From Mediterraneibacter gnavus (lineage in GTDB: Bacteria > Pseudomonadota > Alphaproteobacteria > RF32 > CAG-239), in the NCBI GenBank assembly GCA_963617265.1, contig CAVEOB010000002.1, forward strand, positions 5,215-69,214: a stretch of 64,000 nucleotides of DNA, read 5' to 3'. Numbering within the stretch: the stretch's first letter is position 1; every line of letters begins with the position of its first letter. Of this stretch, positions 1 to 15,233 are shown piece after piece. The notes under the pieces are model-generated. The model saw only the letters and a program-made list of their open reading frames with translations, did no database searches and was not told the origin of the DNA. Made by a program: the position numbers and the translations under genes.

Positions 1-369
1 ATCGGCGGAGCTGCTGCGTCTGCCGCAACTTCTATCGGCAAAGGTGCAGCCAAAATCGGCGGCAAAGTTGTTTCTTCGGCTGCCGGATATGCTGCGGACA
101 AAACCGGTATTACAAATTTAGCCAACAAAGCCGGCAATGCCATTTCCGGAGCAGCGCTAGCTGCAGCTTCTAAAGGCGGCAAAGCCATTGGTTTAGGTCG
201 ATTCCAGCCGAAAGCACAGCGCGGTATGCCGCCACAACAGACTAAGTCTGACGGCAAAGATACAACTCCTAAGCCAACGCCAGCTTCGCCGTCCGACAAA
301 GACGCAGAAACTCCAAAGGTAGAAAATACCGAACAGCCGGAAGAAAATAAGGATAAACCGATTTCTTAA
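1..369 (+). CDS. 3' fragment of a putative VirB6/TrbL-like membrane protein (start lies upstream of the window)
   Basis: Frame 1 is open from base 1 to TAA at 367-369. It is absent from the ORF track because no start codon lies in the window. The tail IGKGAAKIGGKVVSSAAGY...KGGKAIGLGRF, followed by a Pro/Thr/Glu/Lys-rich end, resembles the Gly/Ala/Lys-rich tails after the membrane cores of the downstream VirB6-like ORFs. Confidence 0.4.
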   Translation: MGGAAASAATSIGKGAAKIGGKVVSSAAGYAADKTGITNLANKAGNAISGAALAAASKGGKAIGLGRFQPKAQRGMPPQQTKSDGKDTTPKPTPASPSDKDAETPKVENTEQPEENKDKPIS

Positions 370-478
370 TTGGCGGAACAGCGGGTAAAAATGCAAATCT
401 TAATCATATTGTAACACATTTTGCATAAAAATTATGATATAGTGGTAAAGTAAGGTATAACGGAAAAGGACTATAAAT

Positions 479-1861
479 ATGAAAGCACCAAAGCTGCATA
501 ATATCTTAAAGGTATTGTTTATTGCCTTTTCCCTGCTGTTTTTGCTGACAGCCTGCAGCACCGAAGAAGGCGGAAACGGTGTTGGACAGGAAGATCAACG
601 CAAAGCGGCAGAAATGCAGAGCACTTGCTGGCAAACCGGCTTTCTGAAACTTTTTTACAAAAATATCGGCACTCAAACCCTGAATGTTTACAGCAACCTG
701 ACTAAAGAAAATCTGCTCAATATTGTTTTGCTGGGTTTCACTATTTGGATGGCGTATCAAATTCTGCGCCACATCAGCACGCCTACTCCCGAATCTTTGG
801 GCGAATTTTGGACCAAGATTGTCCGCAAAGCCTTTTTATGTGCGTTTTGCGGTATTTTAGCCTCTTCTACCGAGCAAATTTACTACGTGATAAATAACTT
901 TATATTTCCTATATACATCACCATTTTAGAGTTTACGTCCGAAATTATGCAAAGGCTGGCAAAAGACCCCGATGCACAAGTAAAGTTCGTTGCTTTGACA
1001 TCAACATTCAGCGATGATAAAGCAGAAGGAATTATGTGCGAAGATTACGGCAACGCCAACTGGGGACAAAGCGGCTGCAAGTTCAACCCTAAAAGCATGA
1101 CGGACTTTTCGGCAAAATCTTTTCCGGAAGAACCGCTTAATATGCTGAGCTGCATGGCATGCGCCGTCAGCGCTAGACTTTCTATCGGCTATGACATTGC
1201 CATACGCTTAATGAAGATTGTCAGCCTGACCAGTTTTATCTGCGGCTGTTTCTTAATTGTTTGGTTCACCATTGCCAAGCTCTGTTTTGTGCTCTATTTA
1301 GCCGACAGTATTTTCCGTTTGAATATGATAATGATTATTTTGCCGTTCCTGATAATGGCATATCCGTTTGAACAAATCCGCAAATGGAGCGTGACCGGTT
1401 TCAAAATAATTCTCAATTCTTCGGCTATTATGTTTTGTTTGGGCATCATTGTTTCCATGACCATTCTCGCCATGCAGAAATTATTGACGCAGGACGGTAT
1501 CGGACTGGCGGAACAAAGCAAATATGAAAATTTCGGCACCACCGCCATGGCGCTTATCTTTATGGGCTTTTTAATTGTCAAGGCAACCGGTATGTCTGTG
1601 GAGCTTTCCAACAAAATCACCGGAGGCGGCGGCAAAGCCGGCATGCAGCGCAAAATTCAGCAGCTAGTTGCTATGGCGGCAAAATGGGGATTTCACATTG
1701 TTTCCGGCGGCGCAGGCAAAATTGCCACTTCCGTCATAGACCATGTGGAATCTTTGCGTAAAGCCCGCGCCAAGGTACAAAAAGCAACAGCAAAAATCAA
1801 AGCTGTTCAGCAAAAAATGGATAAGTTAAGGGGGATAAACCGCAATGAAAAAGATAGTTAG
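479..1861 (+). CDS. VirB6/TrbL-like polytopic membrane lipoprotein (paralogue)
   Basis: 460 aa with a lipobox (LLLTA-C) and many hydrophobic helices. Motif A (LGFTIWMAYQILRHISTPTPESLGEFW) and motif B (ILPFLIMAYPFEQIRKW) are shared with the next ORFs and resemble the VirB6 core as I remember it. The tail is Gly/Lys-rich (GGGGKAGMQRK). The family call is made by eye, not by HMM. Confidence 0.6.
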   Translation: MKAPKLHNILKVLFIAFSLLFLLTACSTEEGGNGVGQEDQRKAAEMQSTCWQTGFLKLFYKNIGTQTLNVYSNLTKENLLNIVLLGFTIWMAYQILRHISTPTPESLGEFWTKIVRKAFLCAFCGILASSTEQIYYVINNFIFPIYITILEFTSEIMQRLAKDPDAQVKFVALTSTFSDDKAEGIMCEDYGNANWGQSGCKFNPKSMTDFSAKSFPEEPLNMLSCMACAVSARLSIGYDIAIRLMKIVSLTSFICGCFLIVWFTIAKLCFVLYLADSIFRLNMIMIILPFLIMAYPFEQIRKWSVTGFKIILNSSAIMFCLGIIVSMTILAMQKLLTQDGIGLAEQSKYENFGTTAMALIFMGFLIVKATGMSVELSNKITGGGGKAGMQRKIQQLVAMAAKWGFHIVSGGAGKIATSVIDHVESLRKARAKVQKATAKIKAVQQKMDKLRGINRNEKDS

Positions 1862-2387
1862 TCTCTCTAAAAGTTTTTTATATTTGCTTATTTTTACGCT
1901 GTGCTTCAGCTTTGCCGGCGCAAGTTTAAGCTATGCCGATGATGTAGAAAAAACTGCCGACAATAAAGAAGTTGCGGGAACTTGCACCAAAGCAGCCATG
2001 GATTCGATGTATAATGCCAAAGATGCGCAAAACTGCTGGTATTGCCGCATTGTTACTTTGATGACCGATGCTTTTTTGCAGGCAGCAGAAAGTTCAATTC
2101 CCACCACGCAGAGTTTAGGCAAGATCATTCTCAAATGGGGCTTTTTAATTTGGCTGGGAATTTTTCTTTTGCAGCAACTTAGTTCCATGGGCGGAATAAC
2201 CCCCGGAAAAATGCTGCAAGAAATTTTTATGATGGGATTTAAGTGTGCGTTTGCCTATTACGCGCTGGAAATGGGCACAGATTTTATCACCAACTACATT
2301 TTGAACCCGATTGTTTCAACCGGTACCGGAATTGGCAAATCAATTTTAACGGAAATGTTGGCGCAAAACGGAGCGGTAAGTGGTTAA
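1845..2387 (+). CDS. N-terminal half of a VirB6/TrbL-like core (possible gene fission product)
   Basis: 180 aa with a signal peptide (..LSYA-DD). It contains only motif A (WGFLIWLGIFLLQQLSSMGGITPGKML), preceded by a CWYC motif as in 4776-8024 (CTTC). It overlaps the upstream ORF by 17 nt and ends 14 nt before the next start. Confidence 0.55.
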   Translation: MKKIVSLSKSFLYLLIFTLCFSFAGASLSYADDVEKTADNKEVAGTCTKAAMDSMYNAKDAQNCWYCRIVTLMTDAFLQAAESSIPTTQSLGKIILKWGFLIWLGIFLLQQLSSMGGITPGKMLQEIFMMGFKCAFAYYALEMGTDFITNYILNPIVSTGTGIGKSILTEMLAQNGAVSG

Positions 2388-2400
2388 AAAGGCGGTTATC

Positions 2401-4755
2401 ATGAAAAAGTTTAAGAAATACATACTTATAACCATCGCAAGTTTGCTGCTTTGCACAAGCACTGCTTTTACTTTGTCCTATGAAGAAGCGTATTTAACCG
2501 CCACCTTGTTCGGCGAAGCTGGCGGCGAAGGTGTCACCGGCATGCAAACCGTTGCCAGCGTGATTATGAACCGCCGCAACTATTATCAGGCTCACGCTAA
2601 AGGCGGACAAACGGTAAAACTATCTGACGTCTGCTTGGCAAGATACCAATTTTCATTTTGGAATGATAAAAGAAACTGGACTGTTCAAAACATAGAAAGC
2701 TGGGCAAGCAAACTAAACAGCGCTAATGCTCGGGCTTGGAACAAATGCTTGGAAATAGCGCGGCAAGCCATTGCCGGAAGCCTGAAAGATGTTACCAACG
2801 GCGCCACTTTTTATTATGCAACCTGGATGGATAAAAAAGGTAAAGCTCCGGCTTGGGCAAGAGGCAGAAACTATAAAGTTGTCGGAAACCATAAAATTGT
2901 CTACGGTGTTGGTTTAAGCGCGCTTAAAACCTGGCATAGCGGCACTTCCCTTGCTGGCGGCGGAGGCGGCAGCAGCTGGAACGGCACTCTTAGCGGAGGC
3001 GGAACTGGCGGCTCCAGCAACTATGATTTAGCCAACGATCCGGAAAATGAGTATGTTTTACCGCCTGAGTGCAAAGGCGCTGCGGAGAAAAACGGGCAAA
3101 TTGTCAACAATGAAATAATGAAACACCGCCTGTTTGCCGAAGATATTTTAATAGACCTAAAAGATATGATGGCGCTGATTTATCAGTCTCTTAGCGTGCT
3201 GTTTGCCCGCGGACACGCTTTGATGTGCTTTTCAACCAAAGTTTCGTTTATCTGTTTGGACGGCGGGGCTGGTCTTTCCGCCGCAATCAAATCATTAGTC
3301 AGCTGCACGGTAGTTGTACCGCTGCTTAACTACTTTATTTCCGGTCTCTTAATTTACCTCACCGGCTTCTTTATGTGCATGTCAATTGGTATGTATTTTA
3401 TAGACATTTCTTTCAAGCTTGGTTTTGCTACTTTGCTTTTACCGCTGTCTATTTCGCTTTGGCCGTTTCCGCCAACCCAAAGCAAATTGTCCGAAAACAT
3501 TGCTATTGTCATCTATAATGCTATGCTGTTTGCCTTTGTTTCAATCGGTACTGCCTATGCGGTAAAATTAGTTGACGCCAGCCTTGGCATGGTAAAAGAT
3601 GCTGAATTTTGGATGATTATGGGTGCGGCAGATAATGGTTTAGGCGACGGTTTGGCAAACACCTTCGCAACTTGGCAAACTCTTAACTCTAAAGACTATG
3701 CGGACAGCATGGAAAAATTCAGTGAATCCTACGATTTAAGCTCGGTTAACATTCTAATCATTCTGTTCGCGTTGATTTTTGGTTTCAAAATCTTATCGTC
3801 CAGCATTCAAAATTATCTTTCAACTTTCTTTGGCGACGGCGCGCTTGGCTCTGCCGACACCGCTATGCACCACCTCGGCACTCAAGCCGTCGGCAAAATA
3901 AAGCAAAGCATTGTAAATCCTACTGCGCGTGTTGCTAGAGATATTGCCTTAAATCAAGGCGGTAAAGGCATAGAAAAACTGGGAAACAAATTGGCTAACA
4001 AAAAATTTGGCGGTGCTGCTGCTCCTGCGCAAGGCGGAACCAATCCGCAACCTTCGCCTTCCGGCGGAGCGAACCCGTCTCCGGCAAGCAATGCCGACGA
4101 CGCTGCCGATAATAACGATACACCTGATAACACTAACGATACGCCGGATACCCCTATAAATAACGATTCGGATAACAGCGGTCAGCCGACAGCTGATAGC
4201 AGCGAAACTCCGCAAACAACAGATAGTGGCTCTCCGCAAACTACAGACAACGGAGCAACCAGCTCTGAAAATTCCAACACCAGAGGAGCACAGTCTGAAA
4301 ATACTCAATCTGCAGAATTACCGCAAACCAAATGGCAGCAATTCAAAAACTACTCCCGCCCTACCGGTCACAGCTTGACAATCGGCAACGCGTTTAAGGC
4401 TGTACACCACCCGCAGCAAGCCTACAGAACCCTTAAACAGCTGGCGCGGCAAGGCTCTCAAGATTGGAAAAATGCGGAAACTCTAAAGGATAAAGGTTCG
4501 CTGGTTTTGAAAAAGAGCGGTCAAGTGGTTATCCGCAGTATCCGCGGCAATGCTAACGAGGCTGCCAACGCCGGAATGGGCATAGCCGGAGGTTTTCTGC
4601 AAAGCCTTGGCAAGAGCATGCAAAAGAAACCACAGCACTACTATAGAGAACGCCAAAAACAGAAAAACAACCGCAGCTCTGACGACAGCGAATATCAACG
4701 CCAGCTAGATGCAGAATATCAAAGCGAGCAAGAAAGAAACAACAGTTCTAACTAA
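2401..4755 (+). CDS. SleB/CwlJ-type cell-wall hydrolase fused to the C-terminal half of a VirB6/TrbL-like core
   Basis: The ORF track starts at GTG 2380. I prefer ATG 2401 (MKKFKKYILITIASLLL signal peptide; AAGGCGG 6 nt upstream). The Hydrolase_2-like block (about nt 2479-2910) reads ATLFGEAGGEG..VASVIMNRRN..YQFSFWND..GATFYYATW. It is followed by a Gly-rich linker, then TM helices with motif B (LLLPLSISLWPFPPTQSK), then a Pro/Thr/Asp/Asn low-complexity tail. Confidence 0.65.
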   Translation: MKKFKKYILITIASLLLCTSTAFTLSYEEAYLTATLFGEAGGEGVTGMQTVASVIMNRRNYYQAHAKGGQTVKLSDVCLARYQFSFWNDKRNWTVQNIESWASKLNSANARAWNKCLEIARQAIAGSLKDVTNGATFYYATWMDKKGKAPAWARGRNYKVVGNHKIVYGVGLSALKTWHSGTSLAGGGGGSSWNGTLSGGGTGGSSNYDLANDPENEYVLPPECKGAAEKNGQIVNNEIMKHRLFAEDILIDLKDMMALIYQSLSVLFARGHALMCFSTKVSFICLDGGAGLSAAIKSLVSCTVVVPLLNYFISGLLIYLTGFFMCMSIGMYFIDISFKLGFATLLLPLSISLWPFPPTQSKLSENIAIVIYNAMLFAFVSIGTAYAVKLVDASLGMVKDAEFWMIMGAADNGLGDGLANTFATWQTLNSKDYADSMEKFSESYDLSSVNILIILFALIFGFKILSSSIQNYLSTFFGDGALGSADTAMHHLGTQAVGKIKQSIVNPTARVARDIALNQGGKGIEKLGNKLANKKFGGAAAPAQGGTNPQPSPSGGANPSPASNADDAADNNDTPDNTNDTPDTPINNDSDNSGQPTADSSETPQTTDSGSPQTTDNGATSSENSNTRGAQSENTQSAELPQTKWQQFKNYSRPTGHSLTIGNAFKAVHHPQQAYRTLKQLARQGSQDWKNAETLKDKGSLVLKKSGQVVIRSIRGNANEAANAGMGIAGGFLQSLGKSMQKKPQHYYRERQKQKNNRSSDDSEYQRQLDAEYQSEQERNNSSN

Positions 4756-4775
4756 TGGCAGAAAAAGAGGAATAA

Positions 4776-7700
4776 ATGAGAAAGCGGCAAACATTTTTAC
4801 AAAAACTTTCAACAAAACTGCTGATACTTTGTTTAAGTGCAGGCTGCTTTGCTTTGTCTGCTGCTCCGGCTTTTTCCAGCTGCAACGGCGTTACTCCTAA
4901 ATGCAGCGCCGCCACCAACAGTGAATCGCAGGGCGGCTGCTCGCCAAACAAAACTTCAAGCGGTTCCTTAGTCGGCAGCGCTTCTCAACAAGTTAAAGCA
5001 AAATGTGTTGCCGACAAAACCAGCGGCGGGTGTTTTAACTCCGTTCCGGTCAGCAGTGTTGGCTCATACAACCGCGAAGGCGCCCGCTCCTCCACTCGAA
5101 ACCACTACGGCAGCGATTTGGGCACTGGCAAAAAAACTAACGTGCTTGCCTATGCTGCAGCTGACGGCGTTGTTATGGGCTGTTCCATATCCACTGGCGG
5201 CGGACGTACCACCGTTATCCGCCACACCAAACACTGTGACGGCGCCAGCAAAAACGGACAATATTATTCCACCATTTACCGCCATTTATTCAAACAAACA
5301 AAATGTAGCGGCGAAGTAAAAAAAGACCAAGCGATTGGTATTGTCGGCGGTTCTAACGCTTCCAGCCGCTCCGGTCCGGTCTGCGATAACCCTCTTCAAG
5401 CTAAAAATTGTTCTCATTACTATGCAATCCACCTGCACTTTGAAGTTGTTAACAGCGCTATGTCTGCAAGTTCAACTTATGTGGGCGGCAGTCAAACCAT
5501 GCAAGCGTCTTGCGGTAACCTGCAAGCCCTTTGCGGCGGCTGTCCTACCAGCACAAAGTCTTGTTTGGGCGGCATGCAAAGCTTCAGTGACGGCAATTCG
5601 GCTTCCGGCAGCGAGGTTGACGATGCCAGTATGCCTGTTGGAGCAGGCGCTCCGAACGGTGAAGAATTTGTTGACGGCAGCGGCGAGTCTTCTTGCATAC
5701 TTTCCGATTATTTGGATAAGCAAACCTGCACCACCTGCGGTATTTTCAAAACCATTTTCAACGCCGCCAGCAACCTTGCGCAAACTGCTATCAGCAAATT
5801 AGCGGTTCCCAGCAAGAATCTTGTGCTTATCGGCTTTTTAATTTGGCTTGCCATTTATGTTTTGAAACAAATTTCCTCTTTCCAAGGCGCCTCCCCTGGG
5901 GATTTGCTGAAAGGCATATTCCTGCAGGGCGCCCGCGTCGCCATTGTTGTATATATTTTATCCGGCGCGCTTTATCAGGTAATGGACATAACTTTAACCC
6001 CTGTAATGCAAACTGGCTTAACCTTTGCCAACATGCTCAACCCTAACTCCAACTGCGACAGTTCCGCCGACTATATGGGTGGTATCGTCGGCTATGACAC
6101 CGACAAGGGCATGCAGGAAACTTCTCAAGGCGGCTTGCCTCGCAACCTTGGACAATCCATTATCTGCACCATCAAAAATTTGGAAGACAGCGTCGGCGTT
6201 CTCTTGGCACTCGGCAACTATTCCACCTGCTACGCTTTTCATGACAAGGCTTTATGGGACGGCGTTATCCCGCACCTAGGCTACTTCTTGTCCGGCATGG
6301 GATTATGGCTGGTCGGCGTCTTTTTGCTCTTTGCCTTTCCATGGTGCCTGATAGACTGCATTTTGCAGCTGTGCATTGCCGCGGCGATGATTCCATGTTC
6401 TATAGCCGCTTTTGCCTTTAAATCAACGGCTAAATACCTTGGCATTATCTGGAACTTCTTTATGAACGCCATGTTCAACCTGATATTCTTAGCCGTATTG
6501 ATGTTTATTTTAACCTCTATGTTCAAAGAATGGATAGGTCTGACCGATGAATCGCTTTCCACTTTTGACCCCGTATTGCTAATCACCGCCAAAGCAAACG
6601 GGCTTGCGTGGTGGGGTGTCGGATTTTTCAAAATCTTTGCCTTTGTCTTCTTGTTTGTATGCTTTATTGATGAAGTTCCGTCTATGGCAAGCAAATTTGC
6701 AACCGGAGCCGACTTTGGTCGCCAAGGCATCGGGCGTATGGTCGGTGGTGCGGTCGCTTCAGCCGCTAAGCCGATAGCCAAAGGCGCTGGTCACATGGCT
6801 AAAAGAGGCGCGCAATCTGTTGGTGAAGCCACAAACTCGCTTGCCGGCAACTGGGTTCGCAGCAAAAAGAACCAGCTGAAAGGCATGGCTTTAGTTGCTC
6901 TCGGCGGACGCAAACTCCGCGACGCCGATGGCAATGTGGTCGGCTATCAGGCTCGTTTCAAAGGTATCCCAGGGTTTACGCAAACCCGCACCGTTACCAA
7001 AGACGCTAACGGCGTGTGGACGCAAACCAAAGAAACGCATCAAAAAACTGTTGCCGATAAAGCCTTTAAGCCAATGACCGACGCTAACGGCGAAACTACA
7101 TTTGCTGTCAGAACCAGCGGCAAAAGCGCGTTTGCCCAATATGAGCAAATGACCAAATCCGTTCAGGAAGACGGCACCGTTAAATATACCTCAAAAGACG
7201 GCAGCAGCGTTTTAGTTACCGACCCAAACGGTAATATACTTAAATATAAGCGCGCTAAAGATACGGATATGGTAACTGAAAGCCACAAAGGCAGCGTGCA
7301 AACCACCAATGACGCCTTCATGAGCAAGCGCACCATGGTTGACGCCAATGGCAAAGTAATCGGCAGCGATGTGCAGTTCAAAAACGTAAGCTCAAAATAC
7401 TTAATTAACAAAGACGGTTCAACCAATATGCACGCCTATAATCAAATTATGAACGGCGTCAGCGCCGAAAATAAAACCGACGCTATGGCGGCAATGACGG
7501 CAATGCACATAAAAGCGCGCGGTCAAAACCTCGACAGCCGTTTCAAAGACCGTAAAGTTACAATGAATAAGGACGGCAGCGTTACTATTCATCAAGTCAA
7601 CAATGACGGCAGCAAGCAAGAAATACGCGCCTCTAGGGTCAACGGTCAAATGATTATAGAAAACAAAACCACTAGCAGCAACGGCAGCATCACCCTGCAA

Positions 7701-8025: not shown

Positions 8026-8087
8026 TTCGGCAAATATCGCTAAAAATTTTACAAAAATTTAGACATTTGCCGAAGTGTTTTTGTGTT
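8026..8087 (+). terminator. Putative rho-independent terminator closing the VirB6-like operon
   Basis: A 10-bp perfect inverted repeat, TTCGGCAAAT (8026-8035) / ATTTGCCGAA (8065-8074), is followed by the T-rich stretch gtgtttttgtgtt. The loop is long (about 29 nt) and internally A/T self-complementary. Confidence 0.45.
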
Positions 8088-9196: not shown

Positions 9197-9228
9197 TTTT
9201 TTTGAATATTTGTTATATTTTAATAAAG

Positions 9229-9270
9229 AATTTACTCTCTCGTTTTTATAAAGCGGGAGTAAATTTTTTT
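9229..9270 (+). terminator. Rho-independent terminator
   Basis: Stem AATTTACTC(TC) 9229-9239 pairs with (GG)GAGTAAATT 9255-9265, followed by a T7 run. Confidence 0.6.
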
Positions 9271-9284
9271 AAACAGGTTTTATA

Positions 9285-10103
9285 GTGTCAGACGTAATAA
9301 GAGAAAATGATGTTGCCAGCGAAAAAGATGAAGAATATCCGATTCTTGATGCTCAGCGCTATCTAAATATTTTTCATCAAATTCACATTTTCAACGCCGA
9401 AAAAAGAGCTGAATTTGACCAATCCCTTTTGCAGATGAATGACAAAATTAAAAAGCTGCTGGTCAATATGCCGGGCGGAAAAGTTCTGCTGGAACATATA
9501 AAAGAACTTGAAGATGATGAAGAAGTTTCGGACGAAACGCTTAATCTGATTACTAAAAACATTGAAGAAGAAAAAAAATCAGCAGAAACGCATCACAAAA
9601 AACACAACATAAACGTAACCGTCGGCGAGCTGGCTATTGGCAATGAATTTGCTGAAAAGTTGGCAAACTCTTTGGTTGACGCACTCAAAAGCGCAAATCT
9701 GGCAACAAATTCCGACCTGACGCATACCATCAGCACAATTCCGCTTTTTGGTTCAACCTCGGCTGACGGCAGCCTGCTTATCAGCAAATCCACAATCCTT
9801 AGATTGGTATCCTGCCCCATTGCCTTGCAAAACAAACATTCGGTTTATGCCGTTAAACTTAACACTAATTGCGTTGGGCTGGATTTATCTGACAAAGCCA
9901 TACTTTATATTGACAAATCCGAGCTTATCGGCTCGGGTGATTTAGCGCTCTATTTTTTCAACAGAGCTGAAGCCAAACTGGTCCGGCTCTATACGGACGA
10001 ACGCGGACAATTATATGGTTTGCGCAGCAATCCCGAAGAAAAAATACTGTTTACTATCAGCAATATTGCAAAAATCCACAAAGTAGTGCTTATTGGACTA
10101 TAA
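9285..10103 (+). CDS. Hypothetical protein: unknown N-terminal domain plus S24/LexA-like domain, with no HTH
   Basis: 272 aa with a GTG start. The C-terminal ~120 aa (IPLFGSTSADGS...GDLALYF...KIHKVVLIGL) are a paralogue of the C-terminus of 8207-9196. The N-terminal ~135 aa (PILDAQRYLNIFHQIHIFNAEKRAEFDQSLL..PGGKVLLEHIKE..NIEEEKKS..FAEKLANSL) are a paralogue of the N-terminus of 10202-11296. Confidence 0.65.
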   Translation: MSDVIRENDVASEKDEEYPILDAQRYLNIFHQIHIFNAEKRAEFDQSLLQMNDKIKKLLVNMPGGKVLLEHIKELEDDEEVSDETLNLITKNIEEEKKSAETHHKKHNINVTVGELAIGNEFAEKLANSLVDALKSANLATNSDLTHTISTIPLFGSTSADGSLLISKSTILRLVSCPIALQNKHSVYAVKLNTNCVGLDLSDKAILYIDKSELIGSGDLALYFFNRAEAKLVRLYTDERGQLYGLRSNPEEKILFTISNIAKIHKVVLIGL

Positions 10104-10135
10104 TTTTTCGCTCTTACCGCCTATATTTTAACAAG

Positions 10136-10182
10136 AAATTTACTCTCTTGCTTATATATTGAAAAAGAATAAGTTGTTTTTT
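10136..10182 (+). terminator. Degenerate copy of the 9229-9270 terminator
   Basis: AAATTTACTCTCTTG is homologous to the 9229 arm. The 3' arm AGAATAAGTT pairs imperfectly (8 of 10 plus a wobble), followed by gTTTTTT. Confidence 0.35.
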
Positions 10183-10201
10183 ATGGAGTGAGGCATAACA
10201 G

Positions 10202-11296
10202 GTGGCAGAAGACTTAATTGATGATGATGTAGAATATTCCAGCAATCAGGAAGAGGAAGACCCGATTCTGGTTGCCCAGCGTTATTTAAATATTTTCCAC
10301 CAAATTCATATTTTCAATCAGGCAAAAAAAGATGAATTTGACGAGTCTCTGCTTAATATCTCGGAAAAAACCAAAGAATTGCTGGCAACACTGCCGGGCG
10401 GACGCGTTTTTTTGGAACACGTTAAAGAAGTCGAAGAAAAACAAGGTAAAAATTCCGGCGGCACCAGTGAACTAATCGCTCAAAACATCGAAGAAGAAAA
10501 AAAATCAATCGACAGCCTGAAACAACACTCCGGAAACGGCGGCGAACTTACTTTAGGTGCTGATTTTGCCGAAAGTTTAGCAAATTCTTTGGCGGCGGCG
10601 CTGCAAAGCAGCAATGCTGCGTCTAATAACAATATGACCGACTTGGCTATTTTGCTGAACAAATCGTTCAATGCCTATGCTGCCAGTATGCAAACTTTAA
10701 CCAACCGTCTTGCCGGTCAGGTTAATACCACAGCAGCGACACAGCAGCAAACCTTTTCTGCGGCGCCGGTGCAGCCTGCAGGAATGACAGCCCAGCAGCA
10801 AAACAATTCTTCGACCACTGTTAACAACATCAATATGGATACTTCCTACTTTAGTAGCATAAATCAAACGCTTATGCAAAATGATGCCCGCCGCCATGAA
10901 GATATGATGCAAATTATCGCTGCTTTGAATAAAAATATTCTGAACGGCATCTCCCCGTCAGAAAACAGCGATGGACTTGCCGCGGCATTAAATTACGGAA
11001 TACCAGCAACGGCTCTTGCCGAAGCATTGCGTCAAAACAACTCGCAGCAGCTTGAAGCCATAAAATCTTTCGGTAAAATGCTTGTGCAGGCAATCACCCA
11101 ATCACAGCAGGAATTAGCGCAGACCTTGACGCAGTCCGCACCGCGCTCTACCGTAAAAGTCGTGGTTTCGCAAGACGTTGATGTAGAAGACCAAACCGGC
11201 GGCAGTGCAGTTGTTTCTAAACAAAATACTTCTAATGCTCAGCAGCCGAAAAAGAATGAAAATAACAACGCAAAAAAAACTGAACCGATAAGTTAA
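10202..11296 (+). CDS. Hypothetical protein: the same unknown N-terminal domain plus a Gln/Asn/Ala-rich C-terminal region
   Basis: 364 aa with a GTG start 8 nt after GGAGTGAGG. The N-terminus (PILVAQRYLNIFHQIHIFNQAKKDEFDESLL..PGGRVFLEHVKE..NIEEEKKS..FAESLANSL) is paralogous to 9285-10103. There is no TM segment or signal peptide. Confidence 0.6.
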   Translation: MAEDLIDDDVEYSSNQEEEDPILVAQRYLNIFHQIHIFNQAKKDEFDESLLNISEKTKELLATLPGGRVFLEHVKEVEEKQGKNSGGTSELIAQNIEEEKKSIDSLKQHSGNGGELTLGADFAESLANSLAAALQSSNAASNNNMTDLAILLNKSFNAYAASMQTLTNRLAGQVNTTAATQQQTFSAAPVQPAGMTAQQQNNSSTTVNNINMDTSYFSSINQTLMQNDARRHEDMMQIIAALNKNILNGISPSENSDGLAAALNYGIPATALAEALRQNNSQQLEAIKSFGKMLVQAITQSQQELAQTLTQSAPRSTVKVVVSQDVDVEDQTGGSAVVSKQNTSNAQQPKKNENNNAKKTEPIS

Positions 11297-11337
11297 CTCA
11301 AAATTTCAGCAACGAGGCAAAAAACTCTTCTGACACT

Positions 11338-12654
11338 TTGCTTAGCCGCATAAATAAAAGCTTAAACAAAATTAACGACCTGAAAAATCAGAATAAAAAC
11401 GACCAGCAGCCAAACAAAAAAATTGATGAAAAAGACTCTAAAAAAGACAATTCGGCAAATGAGCATAAAAATAACGAGCCTTTAACTGCTAATCTTAAAG
11501 ACAAAGAAAAACAACCAATTGCCCCTGTTCAGCAGCCGAAACCTGCTCCCAAACCTGAACTGGTTAAAGAACAGCCGAAACCTGCTCCTAAACCTGAACC
11601 AGTTAAGGAACAACCGAAACCTGCTCCTAAACCTGAACCTGTTAAAGAGCAGCCGAAACCTGCGCCAAAGCTGGAACCGATTAAAGAGCAACCGAAACCT
11701 GCTACTAAACCTGAACCAGTTAAAGAGCAGCCAAAGCCTGCTCCCAAAGATGAACCTGTTAAAGAGCAGCCAAAACCTGCTCCTAAACCTGAACCGGTTA
11801 AAGAGCAGCCGAAACCTGCGCCAAAGCCTGAACCGATTAAAGAGCAGCCGAAACCTGCTCCAAAATCTGAACCTGTTAAGGAACAGCCGAAACCTGCTCC
11901 AAAATCTGAACCGGTTAAAGAGCAGCCTAAACCTGCGCCAAAGCCTGAACCGGTTAAAGAGCAACCGAAGCCGGCTCCCAAAGATGAAAACCTTAGTATA
12001 GAAGATATATTGGCAGCCATTCCTTCCGAAGATGACAATCCTTCTGAACCGGATATTTTCTCTGCTGATTCTTTCACCGCACCGGCTGCAGTTCAAAAAT
12101 CTGAACCAGCAAAACCTGTTGAAGCAAAAGCACCGCCTGTCAGCAAGCCTGCTGCAAATTTGCCGAAAGAACCTGAACCGCAAAACCCTGAGTATAAAAA
12201 GTCACAGCTGCATTCGTACGAAGATGCTTTGCTGAAAATCAAAAATGCGCTAAGCTCAGATGATGATATTTCCTTGGACAATATAAAGCCTATATCTTTG
12301 GGCGGTGACGATGAATTGCCGAAACCGCAAGCTCCGGCAGCGAATGCACAGCAAACTCAATCTGCCTCCGCAAAAGAAAACAATTCTACGGCAGACGACG
12401 GCGATTGGGAATATGTCGATGAAAACGGCAATCCGGTTTCCGGCGATGACGGCGATTGGGAATATGTTGACGAAAACGGCAATCCGGTTTCCGGCGATGA
12501 CGGCGATTGGGAATATGTCGATGAGAACGGCAATCCAATTTCCGGCGATGACGGCGATTGGGAATATGTCGACGAAAACGGTAATCCGGTTTCTGGTGAT
12601 GACGGCGATTGGGAATATGTCGATGAAAACGGCAATCCTATACCGCAAAATTAA
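11338..12654 (+). CDS. Tandem-repeat protein: Lys-rich N-terminus, 13-aa Pro/Lys/Glu repeats, and 17-aa acidic DGDWEYVDENGNP repeats
   Basis: 438 aa. The only candidate start is TTG 11338, because the frame opens at 11284 and contains no ATG or GTG. No convincing SD is present, so the start is uncertain. No signal peptide or TM segment is visible. Confidence 0.55.
   Translation: MLSRINKSLNKINDLKNQNKNDQQPNKKIDEKDSKKDNSANEHKNNEPLTANLKDKEKQPIAPVQQPKPAPKPELVKEQPKPAPKPEPVKEQPKPAPKPEPVKEQPKPAPKLEPIKEQPKPATKPEPVKEQPKPAPKDEPVKEQPKPAPKPEPVKEQPKPAPKPEPIKEQPKPAPKSEPVKEQPKPAPKSEPVKEQPKPAPKPEPVKEQPKPAPKDENLSIEDILAAIPSEDDNPSEPDIFSADSFTAPAAVQKSEPAKPVEAKAPPVSKPAANLPKEPEPQNPEYKKSQLHSYEDALLKIKNALSSDDDISLDNIKPISLGGDDELPKPQAPAANAQQTQSASAKENNSTADDGDWEYVDENGNPVSGDDGDWEYVDENGNPVSGDDGDWEYVDENGNPISGDDGDWEYVDENGNPVSGDDGDWEYVDENGNPIPQN
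11533..11988 (+). repeat. 39-bp coding tandem repeat, about 11.7 copies (QPKPAPKPEPVKE)
   Basis: I counted 11 full units plus a partial one directly in the sequence. The units differ mostly at synonymous third positions. Confidence 0.9.
12394..12648 (+). repeat. 51-bp coding tandem repeat, 5 copies (DDGDWEYVDENGNP[VI]SG)
   Basis: Five consecutive 51-bp units were read directly. The differences between units are mostly synonymous. Confidence 0.9.
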
Positions 12655-12723
12655 CAATAAAAAGGTATTTACAAACCAACAGAGCGCTAGTAAAATAGGA
12701 ACAAATTTGAGAGGATTAAAAAT

Positions 12724-13230
12724 ATGGCAGAAGAAAATCTCGCACCAATTACCAAGGAATCTCTCTGGTATGTGGACAACTACATTGTTCTGATAGATTA
12801 TTACGACCGCACGATTTCCCGCATTGCGGCGCGTTGTATCCGCAGCGGCAATATTGCGCTTGAAGAATATAAATTTTATCCTTATGTGCTTGATGTTTTA
12901 GAAGAAATTTGTGAAACCGGCAACTATATTCTAGAACATAAAGAACTCTATCCATATATAGAAAAGAAAATCGCCGGCGGTGTTGAAGCTCTGCGTAAAA
13001 ATCTCTCTATTTATCAAGAAGAGCTGACCAGCAACCAATCGCCGGAAATGCTGCGCTCCGACCCTAACGAAGTGCAAAAAATGAATGAAGTTATGAGTAA
13101 TTTTGATAAATCGGTTGATCCAACCTCTGGTGCCGGTATGAATATAGATGATTTAATGAACAAACTTATGGCAGAAAACAACATCAGCCAACATTCTGAT
13201 AACACCGATGACGATAATCAGCAGCAATAG
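12724..13230 (+). CDS. Hypothetical acidic protein
   Basis: 168 aa with a GAGAGGA RBS. The C-terminus is acidic (DNTDDDNQQQ), there is no TM segment, and I recognise no motif. Confidence 0.5.
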   Translation: MAEENLAPITKESLWYVDNYIVLIDYYDRTISRIAARCIRSGNIALEEYKFYPYVLDVLEEICETGNYILEHKELYPYIEKKIAGGVEALRKNLSIYQEELTSNQSPEMLRSDPNEVQKMNEVMSNFDKSVDPTSGAGMNIDDLMNKLMAENNISQHSDNTDDDNQQQ

Positions 13231-13242
13231 GAACACCATAAA

Positions 13243-14580
13243 ATGAAAAAACACTTTAACACTTTCAGTTTAGTTTTAGGATTGTCCGCGCTTTTATCCG
13301 GACTTTCAGCCTGCATTGCCCGCGATGATATTGATTTTGGCGAAGACAACACCGCTGCCATAAGCGCGCAAGTTCCAGCAGAAACCGTAAATCAGCCAAC
13401 TTCAGATATAAACATTATGAAGTTTTCCAAAGAAGAGATTGTGTTTAAAGACCCTGAAGAACCGGCGATTGTACGTACTCCGGAAGGAGCCAATGCTTTG
13501 GATTTGGAAACTCCGCTGCGCTGCAATGTGAACTGGAAAACCCAGCAGATGGTGCTGACTTTGCCATATATAAACTCCGCTTTCAAACTTGAGCGAAACG
13601 GTCGCAACGACCCGCTGCCGCGCTTTGAAGTAACCGGCTACACTTTTGATATGATGCCGGCAGAGCAAGCATTGGTAAAACTCACCAAAGAAGCAGGCAT
13701 ACGCGTTTCTTCTGCCGATGGTCCATATACCAGCATTTCTGCCGAAGATTTAAAAGGCGAATTTTCGGAAGTGGTTAAAATGATTGCCGATTCGGCGGAC
13801 ATTTACACCACCTACAACGCCAAAGATAAAATTTTAACTTTAAGCCGCCGCATTAATATGACGCTATATACGCCGCCGTCTCGCCCAATTATTTTAGGCT
13901 TGCTTGACGTTATCCGCGGTGCCGGAATAACCAATATTGTAACCAACTGGGCGGATTATTCCATTACATTTGACGCCGACATTGAAACCCGCAACAAAAT
14001 TCAGGAGCTGATAAAATCATTTGAAAACAGCCCTACCCTGATAGCTTATGACGTCAGCGTATTCCGTCTTTACCCGTATATTCAGCAAGATATTGAATGG
14101 AAAGATTTGCTGAACGCCTTTGACTTTGGCTCCATCACCACAGCGCAAACCGGCGTTATTGGTCGCGTATTAACCACCACAAACGACATTTCAATAGAAA
14201 AACTGCAGCAGTTCTTAGGCAACCAAGCTCAAATTGAAATAGTTTCCGAAGGTAAATTTATTGTGCCAAACTTATGGCTTTCGCGCTTTGATATAGGCAA
14301 ATGCAGCAAACCGGAAAGCAACGCTTACGGTATGTCGGTTTTGGCTAAAGCTTCAGTCGAAAAGAAAAATGAAATCTTTTCGGATATTACCTTAGAAGAA
14401 ACCGAAGGTCAGGTTACGCAATTTAAAATCCGCAGCAAGCTTGGCGAGAACTTCTTAATTATTGGCTTGCCAAATGAACTATTCGGCATTCAAAGCCCTA
14501 AGTCTGAAACCATCATCTTTATGGTTCCGCGCCTTGTCCGCACGCTAAAAACTAACGAAACCTTGAAAAACAGAATTTAA
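13243..14580 (+). CDS. Outer-membrane lipoprotein with a secretin-like C-terminal domain (tentative)
   Basis: 445 aa with a lipobox (LSGLSA-C). The C-terminus reads IEIVSEGKFIVPNLWLSRFDIG ... GMSVLAKASVEKKNEIFSDITLEE ... FKIRSKLGENFLIIGLPNE ... SETIIFMVPRLV. By eye this follows the secretin-domain pattern (..GG.i......lvifitPrii). The lipoprotein form recalls the type IVb pilus secretins (BfpB/TcpC/PilN). No HMM confirmation. Confidence 0.4.
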   Translation: MKKHFNTFSLVLGLSALLSGLSACIARDDIDFGEDNTAAISAQVPAETVNQPTSDINIMKFSKEEIVFKDPEEPAIVRTPEGANALDLETPLRCNVNWKTQQMVLTLPYINSAFKLERNGRNDPLPRFEVTGYTFDMMPAEQALVKLTKEAGIRVSSADGPYTSISAEDLKGEFSEVVKMIADSADIYTTYNAKDKILTLSRRINMTLYTPPSRPIILGLLDVIRGAGITNIVTNWADYSITFDADIETRNKIQELIKSFENSPTLIAYDVSVFRLYPYIQQDIEWKDLLNAFDFGSITTAQTGVIGRVLTTTNDISIEKLQQFLGNQAQIEIVSEGKFIVPNLWLSRFDIGKCSKPESNAYGMSVLAKASVEKKNEIFSDITLEETEGQVTQFKIRSKLGENFLIIGLPNELFGIQSPKSETIIFMVPRLVRTLKTNETLKNRI

Positions 14581-14591
14581 CGGAGAGAAAA

Positions 14592-15194
14592 ATGGAAGAA
14601 AATCAGTTTAAAAATGCGCCTCGAAAAATCAGAAAAATCAAACGTCCGCGCGCACCTGAAAATCAGCCGGCAACCTATGGAGTTCCCGAAAAAATTTCTG
14701 TACCGCAAAATAGCCTGCAAAGCGAAACCGCCGAAAATTATTACGATGACAACGGCGATGCCGAGAATATTCATTTTATCACAGATGAAGAGTTAATGCC
14801 GCAAGAGCCGGAAACCGTAACATATTTTTTGAAAAACAAAACTGTCCTGCTAATGCTGGTATTGGCAGCGCTTTTCGGTGTTGTTTTAGGCTCTACACTG
14901 TTTTCCACCCAAGAAACGGCTAAAAAAGGTCTTGACGGCGTTGTCGTAAACTCTGATGTGCCGGTAGGACGCAGCCGCTGCGGCTTAGTTGAGCCTCACC
15001 AAGGCTGCGTGCTCTATATTATGAACCCGCGCAACCAAGAAGTAACCGGCAAAGACTTTTTTGCAACTGCTGCACAATGGACGCGCCGTGAACGCTACTT
15101 GATAGAAACCGGAAATATGCACTACAGCAGCAAGCGGATTCGCCCAGGGTATATTGCCCAAATCAACATTCCGCCTCTTTCTAACAATAACTAA
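14592..15194 (+). CDS. Bitopic membrane protein, function unknown
   Basis: 200 aa with a GGAGAG RBS. It has a basic/acidic N-terminal region, a single TM helix (VLLMLVLAALFGVVLGSTLF) and a C-terminal domain of about 100 aa. It is the last gene before a strong terminator. Confidence 0.5.
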   Translation: MEENQFKNAPRKIRKIKRPRAPENQPATYGVPEKISVPQNSLQSETAENYYDDNGDAENIHFITDEELMPQEPETVTYFLKNKTVLLMLVLAALFGVVLGSTLFSTQETAKKGLDGVVVNSDVPVGRSRCGLVEPHQGCVLYIMNPRNQEVTGKDFFATAAQWTRRERYLIETGNMHYSSKRIRPGYIAQINIPPLSNNN

Positions 15195-15204
15195 CCTAAG
15201 AACC

Positions 15205-15233
15205 AAAAGCCTCCCTTTTCGGAGGCTTTTTTT
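15205..15233. terminator. Strong rho-independent terminator
   Basis: AAAAGCCTCC-CTTTTC-GGAGGCTTTTTTT: a GC-rich 6-bp stem (15209-14 / 15221-26) flanked by an A-run and a T-run. Confidence 0.8.

What the first reader, a model, noticed from the sequence alone, without database searches (positions are those of the whole stretch)
1..15233. Locus-level hypothesis: a 15-kb single-strand block encoding an uncharacterised envelope-spanning apparatus with its own regulators
Seen: all genes from base 1 to the terminator at 15205-15233 are on the + strand, and the next genes (the ATPase operon) are convergent. The block has three parts. The first is the VirB6-like/hydrolase operon, closed by a hairpin at 8026-8087. 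The second is three regulator or adaptor genes, each with its own terminator. The third is a tightly spaced five-gene operon (10202-15194, gaps 11-69 nt) encoding a domain-X protein, a Pro-rich/acidic repeat protein, a small acidic protein, a secretin-like lipoprotein and a bitopic membrane protein. Apart from the hydrolase domains and the HTH/S24 modules, I recognise no well-characterised family. No secretion ATPase is present in the visible part. Inference: the combination of inner-membrane channel paralogues, two murein hydrolases, a periplasm-length spacer protein and an outer-membrane lipoprotein pore covers every envelope layer. It looks like one functional system, either a secretion or DNA-transfer machine or a derivative, whose energising components may lie upstream of the window.
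Basis: inference. Interest (0 to 1): 0.7.

Follow-up and report, generated by a model that had tools for sequence, protein, structure and literature searches.

The report
Secretin module beside T4SS VirB6 array
This 15-kb block from an uncultured gut alphaproteobacterium holds six tandem VirB6-type channel genes of a Rickettsia-like type IV secretion system, a regulator, and a conserved operon built around a very divergent secretin, a pairing not described for type IV secretion.

Summary
All genes from base 1 to 15233 lie on the + strand and end at a canonical terminator.

Part 1 is the 3' two-thirds of an eight-gene operon. It encodes six tandem TrbL/VirB6 paralogues, two fused to murein-hydrolase domains (Hydrolase_2 and M23).

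Part 3 encodes a divergent lipoprotein secretin. Its family aligns to bona fide secretins (hhalign E 3e-41), and the best 46 Foldseek matches are all secretins.

Corrections:
- Part 2 has two genes, not three. One is a recent chimera.
- The "five-gene" operon is four genes. A 58-bp deletion splits one gene.
- The Pro-rich protein has no export signal.
- No ATPase lies upstream.

In related genomes, virB8-B7-B8-B9-B10-B11 converges on the secretin operon, so the module lies between two T4SS gene sets. VirB6 genes lie upstream of the secretin in 58 of 63 loci (secretin identity 32-99%).

The link is not obligatory. A more distant lineage keeps only the small-protein/secretin pair beside lolCDE, and one relative has lost the module from this site.

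Verdict: the block is part of an rvh-like T4SS locus, with a probably cooperating secretin module. It is a new variant of a known kind.

The parts
1..369 (+). 3' end of VirB6/TrbL paralogue no. 2 (653 aa; begins 1593 bp upstream of the window)
   Evidence: L001 overlaps the window exactly and extends it by 3358 bp. Pfam TrbL scores 31.5 bits against a gathering score of 25.9.
479..1861 (+). VirB6-like paralogue no. 3 (460 aa), with a lipoprotein signal (LTAC) and a polytopic membrane domain
   Evidence: BLASTP to the upstream TrbL proteins gives E 1e-11 and 8e-5. Hydropathy shows TM segments and there is a lipobox. The protein itself has no Pfam hit.
1845..2387 (+). Short VirB6-like protein (180 aa), homologous to the first part of the VirB6 domain
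   Evidence: BLASTP gives E 1e-14 to g1082 residues 314-414 and E 1.5e-9 to the 653-aa TrbL protein. Conserved as a 172-257-aa gene in most relatives.
2380..4755 (+). Fusion of an N-terminal SleB-type cell-wall hydrolase (Hydrolase_2, residues 49-171) to a VirB6-like membrane domain, followed by a low-complexity tail (791 aa)
   Evidence: Pfam PF07486 scores 52.1 bits against a gathering score of 27. BLASTP of residues 269-601 to the TrbL paralogues gives E 1e-14. The same fusion occurs in relatives.
4776..8024 (+). Fusion of an N-terminal LytM/M23-type peptidase domain to a VirB6-like membrane domain, followed by a roughly 440-aa C-terminal extension with DxNG-type repeats (1082 aa)
   Evidence: Pfam M23 scores 26.2 bits, below the gathering score of 28.7. 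The HYGSD and HLH motifs are present. Orthologues have precomputed M23 hits. BLASTP of residues 299-578 to the TrbL protein gives E 1e-26.
8026..8075 (+). Weak hairpin after the VirB6 operon; a possible terminator
   Evidence: RNA fold -15.1 kcal/mol, z -1.86; 12 of 200 shuffles fold as well. Not found by the terminator scan.
8207..9196 (+). Transcription regulator with two Xre-type HTH_3 domains and a conserved C-terminal domain of unassigned family (329 aa)
   Evidence: Pfam HTH_3 scores 86 bits in two stretches. tblastn identity to relatives is 64-99% in the genome-collection loci and mostly 46-54% (as low as 34%) in the metagenome loci, always just upstream of the domain-X gene and directly after the VirB6 array where that array is present. 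S24 is not detected.
9225..9270 (+). Intrinsic terminator after the regulator gene
   Evidence: Found by the terminator scan at 9237-9259. Fold z -3.94; 0 of 200 shuffles fold as well.
9285..10103 (+). Recent chimeric paralogue (272 aa): the N-terminal domain X of the next gene joined to the C-terminal domain of the regulator
   Evidence: BLASTP: 53% identity to g364 residues 1-146 and 42% to g329 residues 187-329. Present as a separate gene only in the closest relatives L008, L009, L013 and L015. No significant terminator follows it.
10202..12654 (+). One ancestral gene (816-854 aa in same-species assemblies), split here into 10202-11296 (domain X plus a Q/N-rich region) and 11338-12654 (PKPAPKPEPVKEQ repeats plus five GDWEYVDENGNP repeats). 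It has no signal peptide or TM segment and is acidic
   Evidence: A 58-bp deletion at 11282/11283 relative to L008 and L009. A single ORF in the relatives that have it, fused to about 900-1500 aa in the intermediate clade. No TM segments. pI 4.7. The C-terminal repeats match the repeats of the VirB10-domain giants of relatives (phmmer 27 and 18 bits).
12724..13230 (+). Small acidic protein without export signal (168 aa); found directly upstream of the secretin gene in most loci
   Evidence: pI 4.4 with no signal peptide or TM segment. A homologue lies directly upstream of the secretin gene in most loci of all three clades; this cluster occurs in 137 loci, the secretin cluster in 158, many contigs being cut there.
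13243..14580 (+). Divergent lipoprotein secretin (445 aa): lipobox LSAC (Cys24), N0/N1-type domains and a shortened secretin domain
   Evidence: AlphaFold2 mean pLDDT 85.7. The best 46 Foldseek PDB matches are all secretins (PilQ E 4.6e-9, BfpB E 7.5e-9). hhalign to bona fide Pfam-Secretin lipoproteins gives probability 100% and E 3.3e-41 over 335 columns. 23 of 58 homologues carry PF00263. The protein itself has no Pfam or PDB sequence hit.
14592..15194 (+). Bitopic inner-membrane protein (200 aa): disordered N-terminus, TM at about 85-103, and a conserved C-terminal domain of about 90 aa with two invariant Cys
   Evidence: Hydropathy. Alignment with invariant GR.RCG...QGCVLY...PG motifs. In the AlphaFold2 model the C-terminal domain has pLDDT 72-91 and a beta-alpha-alpha-beta order. 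No significant fold match; several weak LysM matches.
15205..15233 (.). Canonical intrinsic terminator between the convergent secretin operon and the ATPase operon
   Evidence: A 10-bp GC-rich stem followed by a U-run; -15.1 kcal/mol, z -2.2.

Best explanation
The block is the chromosomal, vertically inherited distal part of a VirB-type type IV secretion locus. The organism is an uncultured gut alphaproteobacterium whose relatives are labelled 'Alphaproteobacteria bacterium', 'Azospirillum sp. 51_20' and 'Ca. Scatocola'. The system resembles the Rickettsiales vir homolog (rvh) system.

Shown:
- Bases 1-8024 are the last five genes of an eight-gene operon. Its order is a/b-hydrolase-like gene, VirB6, a 102-aa membrane protein, VirB6, VirB6, a short VirB6-like gene, Hydrolase_2-VirB6 and M23-VirB6.
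- A conserved double-HTH regulator follows.
- Then comes an operon built around a divergent lipoprotein secretin and its small acidic partner.
- Relatives encode VirB8a, a 62-aa VirB7-like lipoprotein, VirB8b, VirB9, VirB10 and VirB11. In one clade this operon converges on the secretin operon.

Inferred:
- The VirB6 paralogues form or gate the inner-membrane channel.
- Their fused hydrolase domains open the murein locally, doing the job of VirB1.
- The regulator controls the secretin operon and perhaps the VirB6 operon.
- The secretin multimerises in the outer membrane. Together with the bitopic protein it provides an accessory conduit or anchoring ring that works with the T4SS. One possibility is a type-IVb-like filament made of the scattered pilin-like genes, as the PilN secretin of plasmid R64 serves a thin pilus that aids a T4SS (own knowledge).
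- The block is not a self-contained machine. Its ATPases are encoded elsewhere in this genome.
For: - TrbL assignment and paralogy.
- Operon structure and starts in four relatives, none with an ATPase upstream.
- Hydrolase domains.
- Secretin homology by fold, by profile-profile alignment and by transitive Pfam hits.
- Synteny: VirB6-like genes lie upstream of the secretin in 58 of 63 loci and the HTH regulator in 60 of 63, across secretin identity 32-99%, while downstream neighbours differ (ATPase operon, pilin genes, VirB11, RNase J and others).
- VirB10 (TrbI, 115 bits) and VirB11 (T2SSE, 77 bits; NCBIfam VirB11, 140 bits) lie convergently within about 4 kb of the secretin operon (directly adjacent in many) in 16 loci. 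The full order virB8-B7-B8-B9-x-B10-B11 is seen in L171-L174.
- The VirB11-like protein has 1581 homologues, the best 120 at 86-100% identity.
- The rest of the window is housekeeping, so this is not an island.
- The rvh hallmarks, multicopy VirB6 and duplicated VirB8, are taken from PMC11077975 and PMC2653234.
Against: - No VirB4, VirD4, VirB2 or VirB3 was identified in the sequence examined. The T4SS core is not in this window.
- In the window's own lineage the neighbour is an ATPase operon, not virB8-11.
- The secretin and its small partner occur alone beside lolCDE and ftsQ/ftsA in 23 of 23 distant-clade loci.
- L022, L086 and L110 have the module without an adjacent VirB6 gene. L004/L005 have the VirB6 operon with the module absent from that site.
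- Synteny within one radiation can be inherited rather than selected.
- VirB7, VirB9 and VirB10 already suffice for an outer-membrane core in known T4SSs, so a secretin has no obvious role there.
- No physical or expression data exist.
Confidence: 0.5

Rival explanations
1. There are two unrelated systems that are merely syntenic. The VirB6 array belongs to the rvh-like T4SS. The secretin operon is an independent, older module, for example the outer-membrane pore of a type IV filament built from the scattered pilin-like genes, or a secretin derivative with another envelope role.
For: - The small-protein/secretin pair stands alone beside lolCDE and ftsQ/ftsA in the distant clade.
- The secretin (55-99% identity), its partner and the regulator evolve far more slowly than the VirB6 paralogues (about 22-48%, beyond the closest assemblies) across the same genomes.
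- Type IV pilin-like genes (motif GRSMIEMLGVLAIIGVL) lie directly downstream of the operon in several loci, and one lies in the window near 59.3 kb.
- The nearest bona fide relatives are lipoprotein secretins, one of which carries a TcpQ domain.
- The module is missing next to the VirB6 operon in L004.
Against: - Adjacency to the VirB6 genes persists to 32% secretin identity while both outer flanks change.
- T4SS genes flank the module on both sides in a large clade.
- No PilB/GspE, PilC/GspF or prepilin peptidase gene was seen. Pfam scans of the window's larger ORFs show none. No locus holds a T2SSE-family ATPase detectable with the VirB11 query other than VirB11 orthologues. The precomputed Pfam tables of the looked-up loci show none.
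Confidence: 0.35
2. One reading: the 15 kb encode one self-contained, previously unknown envelope-spanning apparatus. Its parts would be VirB6-like channels, hydrolases, a spacer protein, a secretin pore and a bitopic protein, energised by genes just upstream.
For: All the named part types are present and co-occur widely.
Against: - Upstream of the operon there is no ATPase in any of four relatives.
- The supposed spacer has no export signal and is half of a split gene.
- A conventional VirB7-B11 set exists in relatives.
- The modules separate in some genomes.
Confidence: 0.08
3. The block is a mobile element, such as an integrative conjugative element or its remnant.
For: VirB6 and cell-wall hydrolase genes are typical of conjugative elements (own knowledge).
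Against: - No match to 72,556 plasmids by DNA or by the TrbL protein.
- GC content is like the rest of the window.
- No integrase or relaxase appears in the scanned ORFs.
- The surroundings are housekeeping.
- The locus is conserved in most of the roughly 60 species-level genomes examined.
Confidence: 0.03

Closest known systems
[quoted passage not shown]
   Same: - Chromosomal, scattered virB genes.
- A tandem array of large VirB6 paralogues. Here they are 749 (in the 95%-identical relative L169), 653, 460, 180, 791 and 1082 aa; Rickettsia RvhB6a-e are 674-1154 aa (PMC2653234).
- Duplicated VirB8 with a small lipoprotein between the copies, followed by VirB9, VirB10 and VirB11.
   Different: - The host is not placed in Rickettsiales. 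NCBI puts Ca. Scatocola in Rhodospirillales incertae sedis.
- The VirB6 operon is not preceded by virB3-virB4.
- Two VirB6 paralogues carry murein-hydrolase domains.
- VirB10 is a 1500-1750-aa giant with beta-flower repeats, and a 1138-aa YD-repeat protein sits inside the operon.
- A regulator and a secretin operon are embedded in the locus.
- Duplication of VirB4 and VirB9, and the presence of VirD4, were not seen.
Lipoprotein secretins of type IVb pili (BfpB, TcpC, PilN of plasmid R64)
   Same: - A lipobox, N0/N1-type domains and a C-terminal secretin domain.
- BfpB is the second-best fold match.
- The closest bona fide homologues are lipoproteins with Pfam Secretin, and one has a TcpQ domain.
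- R64 PilN serves a thin pilus that assists a T4SS (own knowledge).
   Different: - The secretin domain is shortened by three deletions and no longer matches PF00263.
- No pilus ATPase, platform protein or prepilin peptidase gene is nearby.
- The gene partners (small acidic protein, bitopic protein, domain-X protein) are unlike the bfp, tcp or pil operons.
T4SS outer-membrane lipoproteins with an N0 domain (Xanthomonas VirB7, Legionella DotD)
   Same: They are lipoproteins with a secretin-type N0 domain, encoded with T4SS genes (own knowledge). A chain of the Legionella Dot/Icm outer-membrane complex appears among the weaker fold matches (7mud, rank 47).
   Different: Those proteins lack the secretin beta-domain. 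A separate 62-aa VirB7-like lipoprotein already exists in relatives.
VirB1-type lytic transglycosylases and the hydrolases of Gram-positive T4SSs (CwlT, PrgK)
   Same: Murein hydrolases dedicated to a T4SS. Some are membrane-anchored and carry two activities (own knowledge).
   Different: Here the SleB-type and LytM-type domains are fused to VirB6-like channel proteins. No SLT-type domain is present.

Membership tests
TrbL/VirB6 (PF04610) | Match to the family profile above the curated threshold | tested here: met
   The 653-aa protein whose last 122 codons are window 1-369 scores 31.5 bits against 25.9. Many homologues carry a precomputed PF04610 hit. The four paralogues that lie wholly in the window have no direct Pfam hit but match the TrbL proteins by BLASTP, best E 1e-26.
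TrbL/VirB6 (PF04610) | Polytopic inner-membrane protein with several TM segments | tested here: met
   A hydropathy scan gives about 5-7 TM segments in each long paralogue. This is a crude method.
TrbL/VirB6 (PF04610) | Encoded together with other VirB components | tested here: inconclusive
   Not met in this window. Met in relatives L171-L174, where VirB8, B9, B10 and B11 lie within 10 kb.
TrbL/VirB6 (PF04610) | Similarity to solved VirB6 structures | tested here: not met
   A profile of 32 homologues found no PDB chain with E below 0.1. A fold comparison was not run.
rvh-type T4SS | Multicopy VirB6 | tested here: met
   Six tandem paralogues.
rvh-type T4SS | Duplicated VirB8 | tested here: met
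   Two PF04335 genes (253 and 242 aa) with a 62-aa lipoprotein between them in relative L174. This was not seen in the window's own genome.
rvh-type T4SS | Duplicated VirB9 and VirB4; no VirB5 | not tested
   Only one VirB9 and no VirB4 lie within the DNA held. Whole genomes could not be scanned.
rvh-type T4SS | Host in the order Rickettsiales (rvh is described as a rickettsial signature, PMC11077975) | tested here: not met
   Related records are named Alphaproteobacteria, Rhodospirillaceae or Azospirillum. Ca. Scatocola is Rhodospirillales incertae sedis in NCBI taxonomy. No phylogeny was made.
Secretin (PF00263) | Match to the Pfam Secretin profile | tested here: not met
   No Pfam hit for g445 or for the five close-family members scanned individually.
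Secretin (PF00263) | Homology to bona fide secretins over the secretin domain | tested here: met
   hhalign of the family against 22 more distant relatives (the four checked individually pass Pfam Secretin at 46-57 bits; 23 of the 58 homologues scanned match it): probability 100%, E 3.3e-41, 335 columns reaching the C-terminus, with three deletions in the g445 family.
Secretin (PF00263) | Secretin fold | tested here: met
   Model pLDDT 85.7. The best 46 Foldseek matches are all secretins, with E as low as 4.6e-9. TM-scores are low (0.13-0.22), as expected for a monomer model compared with chains from assembled rings.
Secretin (PF00263) | Forms a multimeric outer-membrane pore | not testable with these tools
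   This needs multimer modelling or biochemistry.
Secretin (PF00263) | Partnered with a T2SS, T3SS or type IV pilus inner-membrane platform and ATPase | tested here: not met
   None was seen in the window's scanned ORFs, by tblastn of the loci with the VirB11 query, or in the precomputed Pfam tables of the looked-up loci. The only such ATPase nearby in relatives is VirB11.
Peptidase M23 (PF01551) | Profile match and the Zn-binding motifs HxxxD and HxH | tested here: inconclusive
   26.2 bits, below the 28.7 cut-off. HYGSD and HLH are present in the window protein but degenerate in L004. Orthologues have precomputed PF01551 hits.
Hydrolase_2 (SleB/CwlJ-type, PF07486) | Profile match above threshold | tested here: met
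   52.1 bits against 27, covering profile positions 1-97 of 100.
Peptidase S24 (LexA/CI C-terminal domain) | Profile match and the Ser/Lys dyad | tested here: not met
   No Pfam hit at E 0.01 or better. An eight-sequence profile finds no LexA or CI chain in the PDB. By eye, no GxSM or VKR motif is visible in the alignment.
Type IV pilus system | Prepilin-type pilins, an assembly ATPase, a platform protein, a prepilin peptidase and a secretin | tested here: inconclusive
   Pilin-like genes (G-RSMIE motif) and a secretin are present. The other three components were not found in the DNA held. Whole genomes were not scanned.
Integrative conjugative element or plasmid | Integrase, relaxase or coupling protein; patchy distribution; similarity to plasmids | tested here: not met
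   No plasmid match. Housekeeping flanks. Conserved across most of the roughly 60 species-level genomes examined.

The most novel reading that the evidence does not exclude
The secretin is a structural part of the type IV secretion machine itself. This lineage would then have a hybrid apparatus: a VirB-type inner-membrane and periplasmic assembly, with hydrolase-armed VirB6 channels, that uses or is ringed by a secretin pore in the outer membrane. No such architecture has been described for any T4SS.
Probability: 0.18. Interest if true: 0.9.

Novelty: new variant of a known kind. Interest (0 to 1): 0.62.

Why it matters
- These bacteria are common in human, ruminant and bird guts. The VirB11-like protein of one relative was seen on at least 1000 contigs, including near-complete chromosomes of about 1.9 Mb. 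They have never been cultured.
- The rvh system is described as a signature of Rickettsiales (PMC11077975). An rvh-like T4SS in a non-rickettsial gut lineage would bear on where that system arose and what it did before intracellular life.
- VirB6 proteins that carry their own wall-cutting enzymes are a new way of combining channel and murein hydrolase.
- A secretin operon kept next to T4SS genes over deep divergence raises a testable question: can type IV secretion recruit a secretin, either directly or through a helper pilus?
- The secretin family itself escapes Pfam, so it is currently annotated only as 'hypothetical protein'.

Tried and rejected
- **Gram-positive ICE (ICEBs1/Tn916-like).** This was my first guess from 'VirB6 + hydrolase' and 44% GC. 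I dropped it when Lnt, BamA and LpxD neighbours and lipoproteins showed a diderm, and homologues proved to be Alphaproteobacteria.
- **Plasmids.** A megablast of the block and a tblastn of the TrbL protein against plasmids found nothing.
- **PDB sequence searches.** Searches with g445, its family profile, the VirB6 profile, the g200 profile and the regulator's C-terminal profile gave no meaningful hit.
- **NCBIfam.** It gave nothing useful for the block's proteins.
- **The secretin as the VirB7 equivalent.** I dropped this idea because relatives have a separate 62-aa VirB7-like lipoprotein.
- **g200 as a PilP/GspC HR-domain or VirB8-like protein.** The model's C-terminal domain has a beta-alpha-alpha-beta order and no significant match. 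The best E was 0.13, with only weak LysM-like similarities.
- **A shared operator.** The AGATTCGT triplet upstream of the VirB6 operon in L169 is not repeated in the window's intergenic regions.
- **Literature.** Searches for RF32/CAG-239 with secretion systems, and for VirB6 with secretin, found nothing relevant.
- **Structure prediction with locus-derived homologues.** It was repeated with proteins obtained from the cluster look-up.

Full report
**Organism and setting**

The window is chromosomal DNA of an uncultured gut alphaproteobacterium. Homologues of its proteins come almost only from human, ruminant, horse and bird gut metagenome-assembled genomes. These are labelled 'Alphaproteobacteria bacterium', 'uncultured Rhodospirillaceae', 'Azospirillum sp. 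51_20' or 'Candidatus Scatocola'. NCBI places Ca. Scatocola in Rhodospirillales incertae sedis. From my own knowledge, GTDB calls this group order RF32.

A Hadza gut MAG contig of 413 kb (L008) is 99% identical in the secretin. The rest of the window is housekeeping:
- an N-type F-ATPase operon, Lnt, PhoH and MiaB-like genes;
- FolD, a Ser/Thr kinase with a PP2C phosphatase, PGM and a hybrid histidine kinase;
- TilS, FtsI, RsmH, HolA and LeuRS.

GC content is even across the window. Nothing matches plasmids. The block is therefore not an island.

**Checking the observation**

Confirmed:
- The + strand ORFs are at the stated places.
- The gaps in the last operon are 41, 69, 12 and 11 nt.
- The 15205-15233 element is a textbook terminator. 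The one at 9225-9270 is also strong (z -3.9).

Corrected:
- The hairpin at 8026-8075 is weak (z -1.9). Nothing significant follows gene 9285-10103.
- There are two genes between 8.2 and 10.1 kb, not three.
- Gene 9285-10103 is a chimera. Its first 146 residues are 53% identical to the next gene. Its last 143 are 42% identical to the C-terminus of the regulator. It exists as a separate gene only in the nearest relatives.
- Genes 10202-11296 and 11338-12654 are one gene of 816-854 aa in two same-species assemblies. The window lacks 58 bp at 11282/11283, which shifts the frame. The ancestral operon therefore has four genes.

**Part 1: the VirB6 array**

A Logan contig identical to the window extends it 3358 bp upstream. 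The gene running into base 1 is a 653-aa protein that passes the Pfam TrbL/VirB6 threshold. It is preceded by a 102-aa two-TM protein and another VirB6-like gene.

BLASTP links all the paralogues: the two upstream ones, g460, g180, the C-terminal part of g791 and the middle of g1082.
- g791 begins with a SleB-type Hydrolase_2 domain (52 bits).
- g1082 begins with an M23 domain just under threshold, with intact HxxxD and HxH motifs.

A 95%-identical relative shows the whole operon: a 288-aa alpha/beta-hydrolase-like protein, then genes of 749, 102, 653, 459, 192, 767 and 1083 aa, then the regulator. In other relatives the operon starts the same way. It is preceded by a divergent rRNA operon or by efflux-pump and ankyrin genes.

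**Part 3: the secretin**

The 445-aa lipoprotein has no Pfam or PDB sequence match. Three lines of evidence still identify it as a secretin homologue:
- An exhaustive search found 143 cluster representatives. The distant ones are bona fide secretins (PF00263 at 46-57 bits, with STN, TcpQ or SPOR domains).
- A profile-profile alignment of the close family against those secretins gives probability 100% and E 3.3e-41. It runs through the whole secretin domain, with three deletions in the new family.
- The AlphaFold2 model is confident (pLDDT 85.7). The best 46 PDB matches are all secretins, led by PilQ and the lipoprotein BfpB.

Other features of the operon:
- The bitopic 200-aa protein has a highly conserved C-terminal domain of about 90 aa with two invariant cysteines. 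Its model is moderately confident and has no significant structural match, only weak LysM-like similarities.
- The small acidic 168-aa protein and the large domain-X/Pro-rich protein have no export signal.
- The C-terminal GDWEYVDENGNP repeats of the Pro-rich protein resemble the repeats that decorate the VirB10 giants of relatives. This match is weak and may be biased by repeat composition.

**Gene-neighbourhood evidence**

I fetched 80 loci from species-representative genomes and 80 from metagenomes around secretin homologues. I then compared them by tblastn and by ORF clustering.

| Secretin identity to the window | Loci with at least 7 kb upstream | VirB6-like genes upstream | HTH regulator upstream |
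|---|---|---|---|
| 32% or more | 63 | 58 | 60 |
| Below 32% (distant clade) | 23 | 0 | 0 |

- The outer flanks vary among the loci that keep the association.
- The secretin, its partner and the regulator are well conserved (55-99% identity in the genome set). Beyond the closest assemblies the VirB6 paralogues fall to about 22-48%.
- In 16 loci of the Scatocola/'Azospirillum 51_20' clade, a VirB11-like ATPase and a giant VirB10 converge on the secretin operon, within about 4 kb of its end and directly adjacent in many.
- Look-ups around that ATPase show the order VirB8, a 62-aa lipoprotein, VirB8, VirB9, a 1138-aa YD-repeat protein, VirB10 and VirB11. This operon faces the bitopic gene, the secretin, the small protein, the domain-X gene, the HTH gene and the TrbL and M23-VirB6 genes.
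- That order, with duplicated VirB8 around a VirB7-like lipoprotein and multicopy VirB6, matches the rvh system of Rickettsiales (PMC2653234, PMC11077975).

**Evidence that limits the claim**

- In the distant clade, only the small protein and the secretin are kept. They lie between divergent ftsQ-ftsA and lolCE-lolD, with no VirB6 or HTH gene in 23 of 23 loci.
- Three loci have the module without an adjacent VirB6 gene.
- In L004/L005 the VirB6 operon runs straight into fabZ-lpxD-bamA. In relatives (L023, L024) the whole module plus five genes lies between them.
- Type IV pilin-like genes recur immediately downstream of the operon, and one lies at about 59.3 kb in the window. A pilus-related role for the secretin is therefore a live alternative. 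However, no pilus ATPase, platform protein or prepilin peptidase was seen.
- VirB4 and VirD4 were not found in any DNA I could reach.

**Conclusion**

The upstream-ATPase prediction, the spacer protein, the S24 call and the gene counts do not.

The best reading has two parts:
- The block is part of an rvh-like T4SS locus. I put this at about 0.85 for part 1.
- The embedded secretin module probably works with the T4SS. I put this at about 0.5. I put a single physical machine at about 0.2.

This is a new variant of a known kind: VirB6-hydrolase fusions, a Pfam-invisible secretin family, and a T4SS-secretin association in abundant gut commensals.

Noticed in passing
window 15448-22156 (- strand): An F-type ATPase operon in the N-ATPase gene order: beta, epsilon, AtpQ-like, AtpR-like, a, c, a b/delta fusion, alpha, gamma. 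It is convergent with the secretin operon. It is the downstream neighbour in only some related genomes.
   Followed up: partly
window about 59300-59990 (+ strand, within ORF 58998-59990): A type IV pilin-like gene with the motif SGRSMIEMLGVLAIIAVLSVGGIAGYSKAM and no Pfam hit. Paralogues (22 in 15 loci) are scattered as single genes. Several lie immediately downstream of the secretin operon (L013, L017, L054, L062, L064, L069), and L022 has five.
   Followed up: partly
window 11282/11283: A 58-bp deletion relative to two same-species assemblies splits an approximately 850-aa gene into two ORFs. It could be a real strain difference or an assembly error.
   Followed up: yes
window 9197-9284 and 10104-10201: The DNA after the chimeric gene 9285-10103 repeats the left arm of the terminator that follows the regulator gene (AATTTACTCTCT) but lacks the right arm. 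This is a trace of the duplication that made the chimera.
   Followed up: partly
L075 12942-21195 and L174 11702-19715: In relatives, VirB10 is a 1500-1750-aa protein with long arrays of beta-flower/DUF3659/RHS-like repeats ahead of the TrbI domain. A second repeat giant (about 1000-1140 aa, YD repeats) sits between virB9 and virB10.
   Followed up: partly
L169 303-1169; L004 6675-7640; L006 5610-6542: The first gene of the VirB6 operon encodes a 288-321-aa protein without export signal. It looks like an alpha/beta hydrolase (weak DUF7379 hit). It could be an effector or an accessory enzyme.
   Followed up: no
L126-L168 (for example L141 9017-13122): In a more distant lineage, the small protein and the secretin form a fixed pair. 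They lie between a divergent small lipoprotein/ftsQ/ftsA cluster and lolCE-lolD. This arrangement is conserved in most of the roughly 33 longer loci of that class.
   Followed up: partly
L004 1457-4932: Near the VirB6 operon of one relative lie a 980-aa ankyrin-repeat protein and a Rick_17kDa_Anti-type lipoprotein. Both features are often seen in host-associated bacteria.
   Followed up: no
window 33843-36049: A PP2C phosphatase gene directly followed by a eukaryote-type Ser/Thr protein kinase gene.
   Followed up: no
L169 250-300: Three direct AGATTCGT repeats immediately upstream of the first gene of the VirB6 operon. They are not found in the window's intergenic regions.
   Followed up: partly
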